This document shows positions 55,042 through 61,721 of a stretch of 64,000 nt of DNA, one piece after another. The translations under genes and the position numbers were made by a program. Location of the stretch: positions 1 through 64,000 of the IMG/VR virus record IMGVR_UViG_3300013094_000026; one strand, 5' to 3'. The notes beneath the pieces are model-generated. The model was not told the DNA's origin, ran no database searches, and saw only the letters and a program-made list of their open reading frames with translations. Source of the DNA: a virus. How positions within the stretch are numbered: position 1 is the first letter of the stretch; every line of letters begins with the position of its first letter.

Positions 55042-55568
55042 TGCCTTATTCAGATCCAGATAATAAACCTTGGACTACAGAAAAAATAAAAGAAATTAAT
55101 CCAAAAACAGTGCTTGACGTAGGTGCAGGTGCTGGAGTGTATCTAGATATTATAAAAAATAATTTGGAAAATGATGTTTCTGTAGAAGCAGTAGAAATTT
55201 GGGAACCTTATATAAAAGAGTTTAATCTTGAATCAAAATACAATATTGTATGGAACAAAGATGTTAGATTATTTAAAGAATTTTCTTATGATCTTGTTAT
55301 TTTTGGAGATATCATGGAGCATATGACCAAAGAAGATGCTGTCAAATTATGGGATAATGTTTCAAAAACTGCGGGATCAGCTATTATATCAATTCCAATT
55401 GTTCATTATCCACAAGGACATGAGCATGGTAATCCATATGAAGAACATGTTAAAGACGATTGGACAACTCAAGAGGTTCTTGATACATTTAGCAATATAA
55501 CTGAATACAAAGAATTTGATGTGACAGGCGTTTTTATAGCGAGGTTTAATAATGATATTAAGTCATAA
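55041..55568 (+). CDS. Class I SAM-dependent methyltransferase
   Basis: VLDVGAGAG and YDLVIFGDIMEH. Confidence 0.88.
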   Translation: MPYSDPDNKPWTTEKIKEINPKTVLDVGAGAGVYLDIIKNNLENDVSVEAVEIWEPYIKEFNLESKYNIVWNKDVRLFKEFSYDLVIFGDIMEHMTKEDAVKLWDNVSKTAGSAIISIPIVHYPQGHEHGNPYEEHVKDDWTTQEVLDTFSNITEYKEFDVTGVFIARFNNDIKS

Positions 55569-56247
55569 GATATTTCATTTAAAAGATGCTGTAGAGCGTG
55601 AAGAATATTTTAATAATATAAATAGCTATTTAAATAATTACTCACAGGAATTAAATTCAAAATCTATCAAAATCTCAAATGATGAAGAGCTTAATGAATT
55701 TGTTAAAAATAATCCCGATTTTAATCTTAATTTAAATGGTTATAATCTTGATAATATACAGGGATGGCGTTATGGTGAAATTGGAGTATGGGCTAGTAAC
55801 TTTTTAGCATGGAAAAAGTTCTTGACAACACAATCTGATTATGCTATTCTTATGGAAGATGATATTTTGTTTGAAGAAAACTTTATACCATTATTGAAAG
55901 AATATATGGAAGAGTTACCCCCAAACTGGGATGCTTTCTTTTTTGCAGTACCTTCAGGACAATTTCATAAATACGGCAGTCATTTAGAAATAGGTAAAAA
56001 AAATATTTGTAAAGTATATCAAGATCATTGGATGTTATGCTATGTTTTAAGCAGACAAGGTGCTGAAAAAGCATTAAATATCGTTTCTAATGGTGTAAAT
56101 TTGCCTCTAGATTGGTTCTTTTTTAGACAAAAACATATATTTAACTCTTATTCAATTAAACCAGAAGTAAAAAGTGCAGTTTCAGGATCTCCAACTGAGA
56201 CAACTTTTCAAAACCAAGAAAGAAAGATAATGAAAATTGATTCCTAA
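55552..56247 (+). CDS. Glycosyltransferase family 25-like
   Basis: GEIGVWASN, ILMEDD, YVLSRQGAEK and PLDW. Confidence 0.8.
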   Translation: MILSHKIFHLKDAVEREEYFNNINSYLNNYSQELNSKSIKISNDEELNEFVKNNPDFNLNLNGYNLDNIQGWRYGEIGVWASNFLAWKKFLTTQSDYAILMEDDILFEENFIPLLKEYMEELPPNWDAFFFAVPSGQFHKYGSHLEIGKKNICKVYQDHWMLCYVLSRQGAEKALNIVSNGVNLPLDWFFFRQKHIFNSYSIKPEVKSAVSGSPTETTFQNQERKIMKIDS

Positions 56248-56995
56248 AATTATTTGGCAAACTTATAAGGATCCACGTTTGTCTCTTGAGTCATACATGT
56301 ATGAAGCATCAGAAACATGGAAAGCTAAAAATCCAGATTATGAGTATAGATATATGGATGATGATGAAGCTGCAAAATTTGTTAAGGATGAATATGGTGA
56401 TGAAATGCATCAATTATTTATCAATGTGCCTGTAGGTGTGATGCGTGGAGATATGTGGCGTTATCTTGTTGTGTATAAGTATGGCGGGATTTATGCAGAT
56501 CTTGACACACTATGCCTTAAGCCAATTGATACTTGGATTAAAGAAGGTAAAGATTTTATAGTATGTCCAGAGCATCAAGATCATTTTTGTCAATGGACAT
56601 TTGCTGCAAGTGCAGGACATCCAATATTAAAAACAGTAATTGATCTGATGGTTGAAAGATTAAAAAATGCTGATTACACAATGCCACATTTTGTACATTA
56701 TTTGACAGGTCCAGGAATGTGGACTTCGGCTATATGTAATCATCTTGAAATTCCAAATAATGATCCTTACGGTAGAGCACAGATACAAGATAATACACAA
56801 GGATTAGTTCTTGATATGTCTGATTTTAATTTAAGTTATTCAGCAGTAATTAATAAATTTTATTGTTATGCTGGAAGTGAATGGAGAATATTCCATTATG
56901 AAGCAGTTAAACATCTATATGGTAGTCAAAATTGGAACACAGGTTATGTAAAATGGATTGAAGATCCCTTAACAAAAGGTAGTAGAAATGCTTAG
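56237..56995 (+). CDS. Glycosyltransferase family 32-like (DXD)
   Basis: IPKIIWQT, DMWRY..VYKYGGIYADLD, HP.L and TGPG. Confidence 0.88.
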   Translation: MIPKIIWQTYKDPRLSLESYMYEASETWKAKNPDYEYRYMDDDEAAKFVKDEYGDEMHQLFINVPVGVMRGDMWRYLVVYKYGGIYADLDTLCLKPIDTWIKEGKDFIVCPEHQDHFCQWTFAASAGHPILKTVIDLMVERLKNADYTMPHFVHYLTGPGMWTSAICNHLEIPNNDPYGRAQIQDNTQGLVLDMSDFNLSYSAVINKFYCYAGSEWRIFHYEAVKHLYGSQNWNTGYVKWIEDPLTKGSRNA

Positions 56996-57513: not shown

Positions 57514-58038
57514 ATGGGCGAAGTAGAAGTTGCTGGTCAATTTGACCAGATGAATAAAGTTATTGAAGAGCTACTTAAAGGTAGTACTCCTTCACAGATT
57601 GCCCGTTCTCTTGAGTTAACTCGTGTTCAAGTTGATAACCATATTAAAACTTGGAAAGAATTTGTTCAAGATAATAGTGCTATTAAGGCACGTGCAAAAG
57701 AAGCACTGGCAGGAGCAGATGAGCATTATAGCATGTTGATAAAAGAAGCTTGGCGTACAGTAGAGCAAGCAGATGTTCAAGATGCACTTAATGTTAAAGC
57801 ACAATCTCTTAAGTTAATTGCTGATATTGAAGCTAAACGTATTGATATGTTGAACAAGGCGGGAGTCTTGGAAAATAATGATATGGCAGATCAAATATTA
57901 GAATCAGAAAGAAAACAAGAAGTTCTTGTATCTATTCTTAGAGATGTAACATCATCATGTGATCATTGTAAATGGGAAGTAGCAAAAAGACTTCAAGAAG
58001 TAACTGGACAAGTTGAGGCTGTTGTAATAGATGAATGA
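57514..58038 (+). CDS. Terminase small subunit (putative)
   Basis: N-terminal HTH plus helices, directly upstream of TerL; ATG 57514 follows the FmdB stop. Confidence 0.65.
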   Translation: MGEVEVAGQFDQMNKVIEELLKGSTPSQIARSLELTRVQVDNHIKTWKEFVQDNSAIKARAKEALAGADEHYSMLIKEAWRTVEQADVQDALNVKAQSLKLIADIEAKRIDMLNKAGVLENNDMADQILESERKQEVLVSILRDVTSSCDHCKWEVAKRLQEVTGQVEAVVIDE

Positions 58039-59872
58039 TTTTAATGTATTTTTAGATGCATTAAGCGGGGATGAGTTTGATGAAACTCCAGCCTCTTTAG
58101 AAGATTTTGTTACAAAGAAAGAGTATCTTGGCTTACCACCATTATCTGAATTACAGTATACAATGATTAAAGCATCAACTCAAATCTATAAACGTGAAAC
58201 ATTACTTAAAATTTATGGTGAAGTTGAAGGCGAAAAAATATTTAAACAAACATGTAATGAAGTTATTCTTCAACTTGGCAAAGGTTCTGGAAAAGACTAT
58301 ACATCTACTATTGCTTGTTCTTATATGGTACATATGCTTCTATGCTTGAAAGATCCAGCAAAGTATTATGGTAAACCACCAGGAGATGCTATTGATATTA
58401 TTAACATTGCTATCAACGCTGTTCAGGCAAACCGAGTTTTCTTTAAAGGCTTTAACCAGCGTATTGAAAAGTCACCTTGGTTCCAAGGTAGATATATTGC
58501 TAAAGCAAATATGGTTGAGTTTGATAAAGGCGTAACAGTTCACTCAGGTCACTCAGAGTCAGAGGCGTGGGAAGGTTATAACGTTATTGCTGTTATTCTT
58601 GATGAAATTTCTGGCTTTGAATTGGAATCAACATCAGGCCATCAAAATGCAAAGACTGCATCATCTATTTATAAAATGTATAAGGGATCTATTACATCTC
58701 GTTTTCCAGATTTTGGAAAACTTGTTTTACTTTCATTCCCACGTTTTAAAAATGACTATATTCAGCAAAGATATAATGAATCAATTGCAGAAAAAGAAGT
58801 TGTATTAAGACATCATAAGTTTAAAGTAGATCCAGATTTGCCTGATGGAACGACTGGTAATGAATTTGAAGTTGAGTGGGAAGAAGATCATATTGTCTCA
58901 TATAAGATGCCAAAAATATTTGCATTAAAAAGACCAACGTGGGAAGTTAATCCCACAAGAAGAATTGAAGATTTTACAGAAGCATTTTATACAGATCCTA
59001 CAGATGCATTAATGCGTTTTGCATGTATGCCACCAGATGCTACAGATGCTTTCTTTAAAAATCGTGCTGTAATTGAAAAAGCATTTAGTAATCATAAATT
59101 AAATGTAGATGAATATGGAAGATTTGATGATACATTTAAACCTGATCCAGATAAAACATATTTTATGCATGTGGACTTGGCTCAAAAGCATGACCATTGT
59201 GCAGTAGCTTTAGCACATGTTGATGGCTGGGTGACAATGAAAATTGGTGAAAATTATAAACAAGCAGCACCTAGAGTTATAGTAGATGCAGTAAGATATT
59301 GGACTCCAACTGCATCAAAATCAGTTGACTTTACAGAAGTAAAAGAATATATTTTATCTATTCGTGAAAGAAATTTCAATCTTAAATTGGTTACATTTGA
59401 CCGTTGGAATTCACATGATATGATGCAACAACTTGGTGTTAATGGTATTAAGACAGAAATTTTGTCTGTTGCTAAAAAACACTATGAGGATATGTCTCTT
59501 ACTTTAACTGAAGAAAGATTACATGGTCCAAAAATTCAATTATTGATTGATGAATTACTTCAATTGCGTATTATTAAAGATAAGGTAGATCATCCAAGAA
59601 AAGGTTCTAAAGACTTATCTGATGCGGTTTGCGGGGCAGTATATAATTCCATAGCATTAACTCCACCAGATAGAGATAGAGAAGTAGAAGTGTATAGTTA
59701 TTCTGGGGTATTTGCAGATGAACTTGCACAATTAAAAAAAGAATCAGATTCAAGAATGAAAAATACTATTAAGTTACCAGAAAAGCGGGTAATGCCCACA
59801 GATTTAAGAGATTTCTTTGATGATGATGATAGTGAATACAAAGATATAGTTGACAATTTCAGACTACTCTAG
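58031..59872 (+). CDS. terL: Terminase large subunit
   Basis: LGKGSGKD Walker A, ILDE Walker B, HVDLA, TFDRW and SKDLSDA nuclease motifs. Confidence 0.93.
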   Translation: MNDFNVFLDALSGDEFDETPASLEDFVTKKEYLGLPPLSELQYTMIKASTQIYKRETLLKIYGEVEGEKIFKQTCNEVILQLGKGSGKDYTSTIACSYMVHMLLCLKDPAKYYGKPPGDAIDIINIAINAVQANRVFFKGFNQRIEKSPWFQGRYIAKANMVEFDKGVTVHSGHSESEAWEGYNVIAVILDEISGFELESTSGHQNAKTASSIYKMYKGSITSRFPDFGKLVLLSFPRFKNDYIQQRYNESIAEKEVVLRHHKFKVDPDLPDGTTGNEFEVEWEEDHIVSYKMPKIFALKRPTWEVNPTRRIEDFTEAFYTDPTDALMRFACMPPDATDAFFKNRAVIEKAFSNHKLNVDEYGRFDDTFKPDPDKTYFMHVDLAQKHDHCAVALAHVDGWVTMKIGENYKQAAPRVIVDAVRYWTPTASKSVDFTEVKEYILSIRERNFNLKLVTFDRWNSHDMMQQLGVNGIKTEILSVAKKHYEDMSLTLTEERLHGPKIQLLIDELLQLRIIKDKVDHPRKGSKDLSDAVCGAVYNSIALTPPDRDREVEVYSYSGVFADELAQLKKESDSRMKNTIKLPEKRVMPTDLRDFFDDDDSEYKDIVDNFRLL

Positions 59873-60310: not shown

Positions 60311-60556
60311 ATGAATATGACAGCAGAAGAATCAGTTGAAGTTGTTAAAAAAGAATATGTACTTGGTCCAATTAATCGTTGTGACTCATGTTCTGCAGAA
60401 GCACTTGTTTGGTTAAAAGGTGTTTCAGGAGAACTAATGTTCTGCGGTCATCACTATGCTAAGCATGAAGAAGCATTAAAAGATTTTGCTTATGAGATTG
60501 TTGATGAAAGAAGCAAATTAATTCAGGATAGAATCAAAGACGAAGATTACGTCTAA
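60311..60556 (+). CDS. Small zinc-binding protein
   Basis: RCDSC...LMFCGHH, a pattern I recognise from small actinobacterial proteins. Confidence 0.7.
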   Translation: MNMTAEESVEVVKKEYVLGPINRCDSCSAEALVWLKGVSGELMFCGHHYAKHEEALKDFAYEIVDERSKLIQDRIKDEDYV

Positions 60557-60563
60557 TAACAAT

Positions 60564-60640
60564 GGAGCAATAGCTCAGTTGGTTAGAGCCCCCGACTCAT
60601 AATCGGGTCGTCGTAGGTTCAAGTCCTACTTGCTCCACCA
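60564..60640 (+). tRNA. tRNA-CAT (Ile2 or elongator Met)
   Basis: GGAGCAA/TTGCTCC acceptor; CCCGA-CTCATAA-TCGGG; CCA encoded; G1:C72 paired, so not initiator. Confidence 0.9.
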
Positions 60641-60641
60641 A

Positions 60642-60715
60642 GGTTCCATAGATCAATTGGTTAGATCACTGCCCTGTCACGGCAGAGGTTACGGGTTCAA
60701 GTCCCGTTGGAATCG
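60642..60715 (+). tRNA. tRNA-Asp(GTC)
   Basis: GGTTCCA/TGGAATC acceptor; CTGCC-CTGTCAC-GGCAG; G73. Confidence 0.9.
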
Positions 60716-60718
60716 CAA

Positions 60719-60831
60719 GGGTTACACACCACATCTTAGGATGATTATAGTTACATATATACCCTGTGTGTGTTCACGTTGATGTAGAGATAGGGCAGAC
60801 CATTCTCGCAGGCGGGAATTGTGTGTAACCC
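60719..60831 (+). ncRNA. Candidate structured non-tRNA RNA
   Basis: Perfect 11 bp closing stem GGGTTACACAC/GTGTGTAACCC enclosing three hairpins; fills the gap between two tRNAs. Confidence 0.65.
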
Positions 60832-60838
60832 CCTTATT

Positions 60839-60931
60839 GGAAAAATGGCAGAGTGGTCTATTGCAGGGGATTGCTAATCCCCCGTAGAAATTATGTTTCT
60901 ACCGTAGGTTCAAATCCTACTTTTTCCGCCA
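60839..60931 (+). tRNA. tRNA-Ser(GCT)
   Basis: GGAAAAA/TTTTTCC acceptor; GGGGA-TTGCTAA-TCCCC; long variable arm; GCCA end. Confidence 0.92.
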
Positions 60932-60932
60932 A

Positions 60933-61013
60933 GCTGTATAGGTCCCAAGGTGGGGCAGGGGACTGTAAATCCTCCGTTTTATAACATGCTTGGTTCAATT
61001 CCAAGATACAGCA
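60933..61013 (+). tRNA. tRNA-Tyr(GTA)
   Basis: GCTGTAT/ATACAGC acceptor; GGGGA-CTGTAAA-TCCTC; extended variable region; A73. Confidence 0.85.
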
Positions 61014-61037
61014 CAAATAATATATAATTAATCTATA

Positions 61038-61721
61038 ATGAATAAATTAGATAATTTACCACCTATTTATATAATTAATTTACAAAGAAGATCAGATCGT
61101 CGTTCTCATATTTTGGATAATCTTTTAAAATATGGAATTCAAAGGTATGTTTTTATAAATGCTATTGATTATCAAAAAGATAATCTTGAAAATATGGTTA
61201 ATAATAAAATTTTAATAAAAAATAGTGAACTTGCTTGCACACTTTCACATTTTAAAGCTATAGAGCACTGGCTTAAAACTAGTGATTTTGAATATGCAAT
61301 AATAGCTGAAGACGATTTATGTTTTGATACTGTTGATTATTGGAATTTAACTTGGGAACAATATATAAAAAAAATAGATTTTGACTTTGATATCCTTCAG
61401 TTGGTTATATACAATATGGATAATGATTTTAAAGTGGATCTTCATAAAAGACAAAAAAATGATCAATCAACAGCAGCTTATTTAATTAAAAGAGATCATG
61501 CTGAAAAAATGTTAAATAAATTTATTATAAATAATAAATATAGTTTTCCTGATTATTGTGTTGCAGATCATTTTTTATATAATGAAGGTGAAGTTTATGC
61601 TGCGGGACTTTTTGTAATTGATGAAAGATCAATTAAATCAGATATAAATCCAGAATATGAAGAAAGACAACTTGTTATGAGGAATAAAGTGCTTGACTAT
61701 TGGAAACAAAGTGCTAAATAA
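61038..61721 (+). CDS. Glycosyltransferase family 25-like
   Basis: YIINLQRRSDRR, ELACTLSH, IAEDD and STAAYLI. Confidence 0.88.
   Translation: MNKLDNLPPIYIINLQRRSDRRSHILDNLLKYGIQRYVFINAIDYQKDNLENMVNNKILIKNSELACTLSHFKAIEHWLKTSDFEYAIIAEDDLCFDTVDYWNLTWEQYIKKIDFDFDILQLVIYNMDNDFKVDLHKRQKNDQSTAAYLIKRDHAEKMLNKFIINNKYSFPDYCVADHFLYNEGEVYAAGLFVIDERSIKSDINPEYEERQLVMRNKVLDYWKQSAK

What the first reader, a model, noticed from the sequence alone, without database searches (positions are those of the whole stretch)
60719..60831. Unexplained ~113 nt multi-stem RNA embedded in the tRNA operon
Seen: starts 3 nt after tRNA-Asp and ends 7 nt before tRNA-Ser. A perfect 11 bp closing stem (60719-29/60821-31) encloses CATC-TTAG-GATG (60732-43), CCCTGT/ATAGGG (60762-67/60790-95) and ATTCTCG-CAGG-CGGGAAT (60802-19). 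There is no T-loop, anticodon arm or ORF. An internal GTTACATAT (60750-58) mimics the 5' strand and could pair alternatively with the 3' strand. Inference: a stable ncRNA released by tRNA processing, such as a tRNA-like decoy for anti-phage nucleases, a protein sponge or a switch. I cannot assign it to a known family.
Basis: partly seen in the sequence, partly recalled or inferred. Interest (0 to 1): 0.7.

Follow-up and report, generated by a model that had tools for sequence, protein, structure and literature searches.

The report
Phage tRNA-array RNA antisense to 23S
The 113-base spacer between two phage tRNA genes is a member of a conserved, previously undescribed folded-RNA family. Its unchanging core is the exact complement of helix 69 of its likely actinobacterial host's large-subunit ribosomal RNA, so the phage probably uses it to base-pair with host ribosomal RNA.

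Summary
The element is real. The closing stem (60719-29/60821-31) belongs to a family of at least 54 distinct copies in uncultured freshwater phages. All 12 stem pairs covary, and G-U pairs without A-C pairs place the RNA on the tRNA strand. Most copies sit flush between tRNAs of varying identity. It is not a tRNA, matches no Rfam family and shows no similarity to T4 rnaC/rnaD.

The invariant core at 60735-60754 is the reverse complement of 23S rRNA G1910-G1929, the helix 69 loop, its 3' strand and the junction. It matches the CCAUCC variant seen in many Actinomycetota, and the phage encodes WhiB. Within the paired blocks the family varies only by A-to-G or C-to-U changes, which keep pairing as wobble. 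A 3' block resembles antisense helix 70/71 more weakly. Unrelated phages, including cultured Vibrio phages, carry the general-bacterial version of the 20-mer on other scaffolds.

Best reading (about 0.6): a tRNA-operon-processed RNA that pairs with host 23S rRNA. Expression, binding and effect are untested. This scan has already noted phage RNAs antisense to helix 69 on other DNA; this copy adds a tRNA-array scaffold and a host-matched variant.

The parts
60642..60716 (+). tRNA-Asp(GUC), upstream neighbour (context)
   Evidence: ARAGORN; Rfam tRNA 68.7 bits
60717..60718 (+). AA spacer between the tRNA and the element; 31 of 37 tRNA-preceded copies have a 2-nt gap, and AA precedes the stem in 33 of 54 copies
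60719..60729 (+). P1, 5' strand of the closing stem (11 bp here; 12 bp in 36 of 54 family members)
60730..60734 (+). Linker CACAT (family: CAC plus 2-4 variable nt)
   Evidence: alignments
60735..60754 (+). Invariant core CTTAGGATGATTATAGTTAC, the reverse complement of 23S rRNA about G1910-G1929 (helix 69 loop, 3' strand and junction). It matches the Actinomycetes-type rRNA at 19 of 20 positions. Sub-blocks: 60735-60743 (opposite 1921-1929) and 60746-60754 (opposite 1910-1918).
60753..60771 (+). Variable hairpin ACATATA/TGTGTGT, predicted for this copy only. Relatives have a hairpin of differing length here, or none.
   Evidence: MFE; family inspection of the sequences
60764..60787 (+). Degenerate counterpart of the family's P3 hairpin (CTGTGT/ATGTAG, rich in G-U pairs). 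It lacks the GUAAGAGU loop found in 29 of 30 close relatives.
60787..60798 (+). Conserved box GAGATAGGGCAG of unknown role
60800..60819 (+). CCATTCTCGCAGGCGGGAAT, the second conserved block. It forms a local hairpin ATTCTCG/CGGGAAT and matches the antisense of 23S helix 71 (CCATTCGTGCAGGTCGGAAC) at 15 of 20 positions. The link to rRNA is suggestive only.
60821..60831 (+). P1, 3' strand
60832..60838 (+). 3' tail CCTTATT before the next tRNA; the family tail usually starts CC(U)
60839..60931 (+). tRNA-Ser(GCU), downstream neighbour (context)

Best explanation
This is a phage-encoded structured RNA, about 113 nt here and 77-136 nt across the family, co-transcribed with the phage tRNA array. A terminal helix of about 12 bp clamps its two ends, so the cuts that mature the flanking tRNAs would release it as a discrete, end-protected molecule. 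This step is inferred. A 12-bp helix is as long as the acceptor/T-arm stack of a tRNA, which may also make it an RNase P-type substrate; this too is inferred.

Between the helix strands the RNA carries a largely unpaired 20-nt segment that is the exact complement of host 23S rRNA G1910-G1929. That segment is the helix 69 loop, its 3' strand and the start of helix 70, in the sequence variant seen in many Actinomycetota. The complementarity is shown. A weaker second arm next to the 3' strand resembles the antisense of the helix 70 loop and helix 71.

The RNA most likely acts by base-pairing with host large-subunit rRNA. Pairing would start at the exposed helix 69 loop of nascent 23S rRNA or of free 50S subunits, where helix 69 is not buried in the subunit interface. 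The consequence is unknown. Candidates are blocking subunit joining or 50S maturation, marking the rRNA for duplex-specific cleavage, or shielding the region.
For: 1. Real RNA on the + strand. All 12 P1 pairs covary, 97.7% of cells are paired and 0 of 500 shuffles reach the covariation score. G-U pairs are present and A-C pairs are absent. The stem is 12 bp in 36 of 54 copies.

2. Module of tRNA arrays. 37 of 54 copies have a tRNA 0-2 nt upstream and 36 of 54 have one 3-11 nt downstream, with 6 and 9 different tRNA identities respectively.

3. Complementarity to rRNA. In the two loci checked it lies inside the LSU rRNA gene on the opposite strand, and many of the other hits are on short, high-coverage contigs typical of rRNA operons. 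The window copy matches 19 of 20 positions (blastn E 1e-4 against one rRNA operon), and this was the only rRNA site hit consistently across the family.

4. Host match. The phage encodes WhiB. The core fits the CCAUCC form of helix 69, one of several forms found among 301 Actinomycetota genomes, and not the CGGUCC form.

5. Substitution pattern. In 18 distinct cores, positions opposite 1910-1917, 1922-23 and 1925-29 change only A-to-G or C-to-U. These are 6 variant types at 5 of 7 A/C positions, against none at 8 G/U positions. All disruptive changes cluster opposite C1924 and A1918-C1921.

6. Convergence. The general-bacterial antisense 20-mer occurs in other viral contigs on unrelated scaffolds (hairpin loop plus terminator, seed plus terminator, after a tRNA-Val), always on the locally transcribed strand. 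Cultured Vibrio phages carry it with two changes, both wobble-compatible.

7. No target in the phage's own genome.

8. The core is predicted to be more unpaired than the rest of the interior in 42 of 54 copies.
Against: There is no expression, end-mapping or binding data, so release by tRNA processing and pairing with rRNA are both inferences. The predicted accessibility of the core is only modestly higher than the rest (0.51 against 0.43). About a third of copies carry a mismatch opposite C1924 and a 1-2 nt irregularity opposite A1918-C1921, so the duplex would be two helices of 8-9 bp rather than 20 continuous pairs. The second arm's similarity to antisense helix 70/71 is patchy; its rank was 5 or better of 906 windows in only 12 of 39 copies. 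A free-energy scan against whole rRNA did not single out the site. In mature ribosomes helix 69 is structured, modified and buried at the interface, which limits when pairing could happen (own knowledge). A phage needs ribosomes, so the benefit is not obvious. Part of the family was collected with a pattern that required the core, although the substitution evidence comes from copies found through TerL neighbours or the covariance model.
Confidence: 0.6

Rival explanations
1. It is a structured RNA whose conserved core binds a protein or makes tertiary contacts, for example as a scaffold, sponge or processing signal in the tRNA operon. The complementarity to rRNA would then be incidental, or the relic of a captured antisense rDNA fragment.
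For: The scaffold beyond the core is also conserved: the P3 hairpin with a GUAAGAGU loop and the GAGAUAGGGCAG box have no rRNA counterpart. The core is not fully unpaired in predictions. The duplex with rRNA would be interrupted.
Against: Unrelated scaffolds in other phage lineages carry the same 20-nt complement with the same boundaries. The core tracks the host group's helix 69 variant. Variation is limited to wobble-compatible changes, which protein recognition does not predict.
Confidence: 0.2
2. It is a tRNA-processing by-product or decoy: a stable minihelix RNA that occupies RNase P or other tRNA-acting enzymes, or anti-phage tRNA nucleases, with no role for pairing.
For: It is flush between tRNAs. 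The terminal helix of about 12 bp equals the tRNA acceptor/T stack (comparison from own knowledge). T4 likewise carries non-tRNA stable RNAs in its tRNA cluster.
Against: There is no anticodon arm, T-loop or D-arm in any of 54 copies. Some copies stand without an upstream tRNA, right after the terminase gene or an ORF. This reading does not explain the invariant rRNA complement.
Confidence: 0.08
3. It is a DNA-level element: a copy of the 23S rDNA site that homing endonucleases and mobile introns favour (the I-CeuI/I-PpoI region; own knowledge), serving as a homing or recombination site in the phage genome.
For: The matched rDNA stretch coincides with a known hotspot for homing endonucleases (own knowledge). 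Phage tRNA clusters attract such genes, for example segB in T4.
Against: The flanking 12-bp inverted repeat covaries with G-U pairs and no A-C pairs, which is a strand-specific RNA signature. Core substitutions are directional. The orientation is always antisense on the transcribed strand in independent lineages. No endonuclease gene is adjacent.
Confidence: 0.07
4. It is a self-cleaving ribozyme that helps process the tRNA array, like the HDV-like ribozymes found next to phage tRNAs.
For: Its position is flush with tRNAs, and it has conserved unpaired nucleotides.
Against: No Rfam ribozyme family matches at E<=10 in three copies. No copy has hammerhead core words. A simple terminal helix of 12 bp does not fit the nested pseudoknot of HDV-like ribozymes (own knowledge).
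Confidence: 0.03

Closest known systems
Trans-acting antisense RNAs that present a complement in an exposed loop or single strand (CopA/CopT, RNA I/RNA II; seed-type sRNAs) - own knowledge
   Same: A short, conserved and largely unpaired segment complementary to a target RNA, held on a stable scaffold. The target's own hairpin loop (helix 69) could start pairing as a loop contact.
   Different: The apparent target is ribosomal RNA rather than an mRNA or a replication primer. The RNA lies inside a tRNA array and is closed by a 12-bp terminal helix instead of ending in a terminator. No binding has been shown.
T4 stable RNAs rnaC and rnaD (species 1 and 2) in the T4 tRNA cluster
   Same: Non-tRNA small RNAs of 119-139 nt encoded within a phage tRNA cluster next to tRNAs. 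They are presumably released by tRNA-processing enzymes, and their function is unknown (own knowledge).
   Different: I saw no shared sequence or fold. rnaC carries a tRNA-type T arm (CCGGGTTCGAATCCCGG), and this family has none. Neither T4 RNA contains the helix 69 complement when its sequence is read.
Phage RNAs antisense to 23S helix 69 noted earlier in this scan on other genomes (unpublished AI notes)
   Same: The same rRNA target stretch and the same strand logic. I confirmed the recurrence independently on other viral contigs and in Vibrio phage PWH3a-P1.
   Different: Those copies are 3'-UTR or terminator-linked hairpin scaffolds, mostly carrying the general-bacterial sequence. This one is a tRNA-array module with a covarying 12-bp closing helix and the Actinomycetes-type variant.
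Guide RNAs that pair with rRNA (box C/D and H/ACA sRNAs of archaea and eukaryotes) - own knowledge
   Same: An RNA scaffold that presents 10-20 nt complementary to rRNA, at a heavily modified site (helix 69).
   Different: No copy has box C, box D or ACA motifs. No partner enzymes are encoded nearby. Such guides are unknown in bacteria.
Ribosome-associated small RNAs such as tRNA fragments that bind ribosomes in archaea and yeast - own knowledge
   Same: Small RNAs linked to tRNA biogenesis that are proposed to act directly on ribosomes.
   Different: Those are tRNA fragments acting mostly on the small subunit or the mRNA channel. Here there is a dedicated gene with extended Watson-Crick complementarity to 23S.

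Membership tests
tRNA (Rfam RF00005) | Cloverleaf with anticodon arm, T-loop and 7-bp acceptor stem | tested here: not met
   ARAGORN in standard, intron, mitochondrial and relaxed modes gave no consistent call on the copies tested. Rfam tRNA hits only the neighbours. No T-loop word in 54 copies.
Any Rfam 15 family | Covariance-model match | tested here: not met
   No match over the element at gathering threshold or at E<=10 in the window copy, in L166 or in L172, where the only hit was a chance-level miRNA at E 5.8.
T4 rnaC/rnaD stable RNAs | Location inside a phage tRNA cluster, adjacent to tRNAs | tested here: met
T4 rnaC/rnaD stable RNAs | Shared sequence or fold with rnaC or rnaD | tested here: not met
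   Reading the T4 sequences shows no core motif, and rnaC has a T arm that this family lacks. The predicted folds differ. The covariance model was not run on the T4 locus.
Y RNA-like (YrlA) | tRNA-like module with a T arm, plus a Ro-binding stem | tested here: not met
   The only YrlA hit (21 bits against a gathering score of 69) lies over the tRNAs at 60607-60669, not over the element. There is no T-loop.
Self-cleaving ribozymes (hammerhead, HDV-like, twister, pistol, hatchet, hairpin) | Match to the family models or core words | tested here: not met
   Catalysis itself cannot be tested with these tools.
Box C/D or H/ACA guide RNAs | Box C (RUGAUGA) with box D (CUGA), or an ACA box 3' of the hairpin | tested here: not met
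   0 of 54 copies
Base-pairing antisense RNA against 23S rRNA helix 69 (class seen in this scan) | Conserved segment exactly complementary to 23S about 1910-1929, on the transcribed strand | tested here: met
   strand
Base-pairing antisense RNA against 23S rRNA helix 69 (class seen in this scan) | Variation compatible with pairing, and a match to the host's rRNA variant | tested here: met
   Only wobble-compatible changes in the paired blocks. Actinomycetes-type variant in a phage that encodes WhiB. Vibrio phages carry the general-bacterial type.
Base-pairing antisense RNA against 23S rRNA helix 69 (class seen in this scan) | The RNA is made and binds 23S rRNA or the 50S subunit in infected cells | not testable with these tools
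   Needs RNA from infected cells, or binding assays.

The most novel reading that the evidence does not exclude
Phages of many lineages make small RNAs that seize helix 69 of host 23S rRNA. This family does so from inside the tRNA operon, using tRNA-processing enzymes to release an end-clamped RNA. That RNA would take free or nascent large subunits out of service, or mark them for cleavage, and its sequence tracks the host phylum's helix 69 variant. If so, this is an RNA-based, sequence-programmed attack on, or control of, the ribosome by a virus.
Probability: 0.35. Interest if true: 0.9.

Novelty: new variant of a known kind. Interest (0 to 1): 0.8.

Why it matters
Phages are known to act on ribosomes through proteins. 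In the paper searches I ran, I found no described phage RNA that pairs with ribosomal RNA. Helix 69 forms the central bridge between the ribosomal subunits and touches tRNAs and release and recycling factors (own knowledge).

A virus-encoded RNA aimed at helix 69 would be a new mode of host takeover. It would also give a possible function to non-tRNA RNAs in phage tRNA clusters, an open question since T4 rnaC and rnaD were found. The family offers a clear, cheap test, because the core can be mutated and the rRNA compensated. The core's match to the host group's helix 69 variant could also serve as a host-prediction marker for uncultured phages.

Tried and rejected
- **Rfam:** scans at gathering threshold and at E<=10 on three copies found nothing.
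- **tRNA detection:** relaxed, intron and mitochondrial ARAGORN modes gave only inconsistent low-score calls.
- **Cultured phages:** blastn of the element against 50,697 phage records gave no homologue. A 30-nt Actino-type core query gave only chance-level hits inside unrelated CDSs.
- **T4 rnaC/rnaD:** fetched, read and folded; I saw no shared sequence or fold.
- **Duplex energy scan:** RNAduplex of whole interiors against whole rRNA was not discriminating, because GC-rich rRNA gives low energies everywhere. I set it aside in favour of match-based tests.
not conserved.
- **CsrA-type GGA sponge:** considered and dropped, because GGA in the core is replaced by GUA, GAA or GCA in about a third of copies.
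- **Mini-ORF in the core (AUG..UAG):** the frame is not conserved.
- **Target inside the phage genome:** none within 2 mismatches.
- **Expression:** no RNA holder is listed among public runs; the holders are DNA runs labelled lake, pond or freshwater metagenomes, most with only a small share of the words. I did not lay reads.
- **ICP1 lead from an earlier scan note:** the ICP1 paper confirms an abundant ~800-nt non-coding transcript (PMC7567579). However, NC_015157 holds neither the 20-mer within 3 mismatches nor TTATAGTTAC, so I could not reproduce the link with these patterns.
- **Other short rRNA matches** (GGUGCUGGAA sense, GGGCAG-CGUCA antisense): treated as chance.

Full report
**Context.** The window is the first 64 kb of a 96.5-kb IMG/VR virus record, about 34% G+C and estimated 90% complete. 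The finding lies in a + strand tRNA array just downstream of the large terminase gene at 58031-59872. The tRNAs are Asn 60203-74, Met 60564-640, Asp 60642-716, Ser 60839-931 and Tyr 60933-61014. A small DUF7455 gene (60311-60556) sits inside the array and glycosyltransferase genes flank it. The phage encodes a WhiB-family protein outside the window (G000 68727-68900, E 5e-12; among 14 control genomes this family appears only in Corynebacterium). This points to an actinobacterial host. The public runs that hold most of this DNA are labelled lake-water metagenomes and may be its source.

**The observation.** The 113-nt stretch 60719-60831 starts 2 nt after tRNA-Asp and ends 7 nt before tRNA-Ser. 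Its ends form an 11-bp helix. It folds better than shuffled sequence, though only modestly (z -2.55 to -2.86). ARAGORN does not call it a tRNA in any mode, and Rfam 15 has no match even at E<=10.

**A conserved family.**
- Loci around TerL relatives show gaps of 114-135 nt inside their tRNA arrays that hold homologues.
- A pattern scan of viral contigs and a covariance-model search of the TerL loci raised the set to 54 distinct copies with a clear closing helix, plus further variants.
- The closing helix P1 is strongly supported. All 12 pairs show compensatory changes and 97.7% of 606 cells are paired. The covariation score is 0.726, against 0.315 for shuffles (0 of 500 reach it) and at most 0.17 when one strand is slid.
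- G-U and U-G pairs occur at six of the twelve positions and A-C pairs never occur, so the functional strand is the + strand, the same as the tRNAs.
- P1 is 12 bp in 36 of 54 copies, 13 in 10, 14 in 5 and 11 in 3.
- 37 of 54 copies have a tRNA ending 0-2 nt upstream and 36 have one starting 3-11 nt downstream (29 have both). The neighbours have 6 and 9 different identities, so the element is a module of the arrays rather than an appendage of one tRNA.
- Some copies have no upstream tRNA and follow the terminase gene or an ORF directly.
- Short forms of 77-80 nt lack most of the 3' domain.

**Interior structure.** In the subfamily closest to the window, 29 of 30 copies have a hairpin (P3) with a GUAAGAGU-type loop. 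It appears with 17 different stems, including compensatory ones such as CCGTG/CATGG, CCGTA/TGCGG and CCCGA/TCGGG. The window copy is divergent here, with only a weak, G-U-rich counterpart. I could not settle the rest of the interior fold, because sequence-based alignments are not reliable there.

**The key result.** The most conserved part of the family is CUUAG(G)AUG, then 1-2 nt, then UAUAGUUAC. In the window this is 60735-60754.
Every listed hit was in Actinomycetota, and many lay on short, high-coverage contigs of the kind rRNA operons give.
- In the two loci I checked with Rfam, the match lies inside the LSU rRNA gene on the opposite strand. The core is therefore the reverse complement of 23S rRNA GUAACUAUAACCAUCCUAAG.
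- By my knowledge of E. coli numbering this is about G1910-G1929: the loop of helix 69, its 3' strand and the junction to helix 70.
- The window copy matches 19 of 20 positions (blastn E 1e-4 against one rRNA operon). This was the only rRNA site hit consistently by all family members.
- The phage genome has no other sequence complementary to the core.

**Evidence that the complementarity is functional.**
1. *Host match.* Among 301 Actinomycetota genomes, this part of helix 69 reads AACCAUCC, AACGGUCC, AACCGUCC, AACGAUCC or AACGGUGC. The family's core fits only the CCAUCC form. Two genomes in that sample are flagged as unpublished (G051, G091); they add only one row each to this tally.
2. *Direction of variation.* In 18 distinct cores, positions opposite 1910-1917, 1922-1923 and 1925-1929 change only A-to-G or C-to-U, which keeps pairing as G-U. 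These are six variant types at 5 of the 7 A/C positions, against none at the 8 G/U positions (my Fisher estimate is about 0.007). All disruptive substitutions and indels sit opposite C1924 and A1918-C1921. This suggests two helices of 8-9 bp with the rRNA, separated by a small internal loop. The informative variants came from copies found through TerL neighbours or the covariance model, not through the motif pattern.
3. *Convergence.* The general-bacterial form of the antisense 20-mer, CTTAGGACCGTTATAGTTAC, occurs in eight viral contigs. One is true rDNA. The other seven represent at least three unrelated scaffolds: a hairpin loop followed by a terminator between ORFs, a seed followed by a terminator, and a stem-loop 68 nt after a tRNA-Val. 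All are on the locally transcribed strand. Cultured Vibrio phages (PWH3a-P1, qdvp001 and relatives) carry CTTGGGACCGTTATAGTTAT in an intergenic region on the gene strand. Both differences from the perfect complement are wobble-compatible.
4. *Accessibility.* The core is predicted to be somewhat more unpaired than the rest of the interior (0.51 against 0.43; higher in 42 of 54 copies).

**A weaker second arm.** The conserved 3' block, CAUU(C)-GUGCW...GGAAU in the family and CCATTCTCGCAGGCGGGAAT at 60800-60819 in the window, resembles the antisense of helix 71 (CCAUUCGUGCAGGUCGGAAC). The window matches at 15 of 20 positions. In other subfamilies the strand next to P1 reads AAGGAAAUCG(C) or GAAUUUGGCGC, close to the antisense of the helix 70 loop (GGAAUUUCGC). 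The order of blocks on the RNA is then a circular permutation of antisense 23S about 1910-1962, with P1 inserted between blocks. In a window-rank test, the antisense helix 70/71 region ranked 5 or better of 906 rRNA windows in 12 of 39 copies and first in 5. That is more than chance but far from uniform. I treat this arm as suggestive.

**Mechanism.** Shown: a conserved, strand-specific RNA structure; its placement in tRNA arrays; and the complementarity with its pattern of variation. Inferred:
- Co-transcription with the tRNAs.
- Release by the cuts that mature the neighbouring tRNAs, with the ~12-bp terminal helix (the length of a tRNA acceptor/T stack) protecting the ends and perhaps being recognised by RNase P.
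- Pairing with host 23S rRNA, started at the helix 69 loop.
- An effect on free or nascent large subunits.

Helix 69 is buried at the subunit interface in 70S ribosomes and carries modifications, including an N3-methylated pseudouridine at 1915 that cannot pair (own knowledge). Nascent rRNA, pre-50S particles or free 50S subunits are therefore the plausible targets. I cannot tell whether the outcome is blocked subunit joining, blocked maturation, duplex-directed cleavage or protection from a host nuclease. As a lead only: from my own knowledge, mycobacterial MazF toxins cut the neighbouring helix 70 loop.

**Comparison with known systems.**
- It works most like loop- or seed-presenting antisense RNAs, but with rRNA as the apparent target.
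- It shares its genomic niche with T4 rnaC and rnaD, but I saw no shared sequence or fold.
- It has no box C/D, ACA, T-loop or hammerhead words in any of 54 copies.
- My paper searches found no description of a phage RNA complementary to 23S rRNA.
- Cultured phage records hold no copy of this family.

**Earlier notes of this scan.** After I had reached the antisense reading, a word search of the scan's notes showed about 30 earlier AI findings of phage RNAs antisense to helix 69 on other genomes and scaffolds. They are not independent evidence. I re-derived the recurrence myself. One of their leads, a link to the abundant non-coding RNA of phage ICP1, I could not reproduce with the loop complement or the 20-mer.

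This copy adds three things. It is a distinct scaffold embedded in tRNA arrays with a covarying 12-bp closing helix. It carries an Actinomycetes-type core in a WhiB-encoding phage, which ties the core to the host group's rRNA variant. And it shows a substitution pattern that favours RNA-RNA pairing.

**Verdict.** The best explanation is a tRNA-operon-borne antisense RNA against 23S helix 69 (confidence 0.6). The existence of the conserved RNA family itself is near certain.

Noticed in passing
window 60311-60556 (+): A small Cys-rich DUF7455 protein gene (81 aa; Pfam E 5.6e-17) sits inside the tRNA array, between tRNA-Asn and the other tRNAs. Relatives show a gap of similar size after tRNA-Asn, so the gene may be kept there. 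It could be a partner of the array's RNAs.
   Followed up: partly
L297:1902-1921, L298:4192-4211, L299:1882-1901(-), L302:1489-1508: Other viral contigs carry the general-bacterial antisense helix 69 20-mer on unrelated scaffolds (hairpin loop plus terminator, seed plus terminator, stem-loop after tRNA-Val), always on the transcribed strand.
   Followed up: partly
L306:1501-1524 (Vibrio phage PWH3a-P1, HQ634156 80887-80910): Cultured Vibrio phages (PWH3a-P1, qdvp001, R16F, 10AMN, P018-4) have CCTTGGGACCGTTATAGTTATGG in an unannotated intergenic region on the gene strand. Both differences from the perfect 23S complement are wobble-compatible. This offers a tractable system for experiments.
   Followed up: partly
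G000:C1:68727-68900 (outside the window): A WhiB-family gene in the same phage genome, which suggests an actinobacterial host.
   Followed up: yes
L010:7270-7346, L090:1771-1849, L109:765-844, L118:2605-2683, L114:5065-5141: Short 77-80 nt forms of the family keep P1 and the core but lack P3 and most of the 3' domain. In the four L010-type copies the strand next to P1 reads UCGCU, complementary to 23S AGCGA just 3' of the core's target.
   Followed up: partly
window 55552-56995 and 61038-61721: Two GT25-family and one GT32-like glycosyltransferase genes flank the terminase and tRNA region (Pfam and PHROG hits).
   Followed up: no
window 60933-61014: tRNA-Tyr is found by ARAGORN and by Rfam in the 1-kb scan (37.5 bits), but it was not listed in the whole-window Rfam gathering scan. 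This looks like a filter effect, not a defect of the gene.
   Followed up: no
NC_015157 (Vibrio phage ICP1): An earlier scan note links ICP1's abundant ~800-nt non-coding RNA to the helix 69 antisense module. The record lacks the 20-mer (within 3 mismatches) and the 10-mer TTATAGTTAC, so I could not reproduce the link with these patterns.
   Followed up: partly
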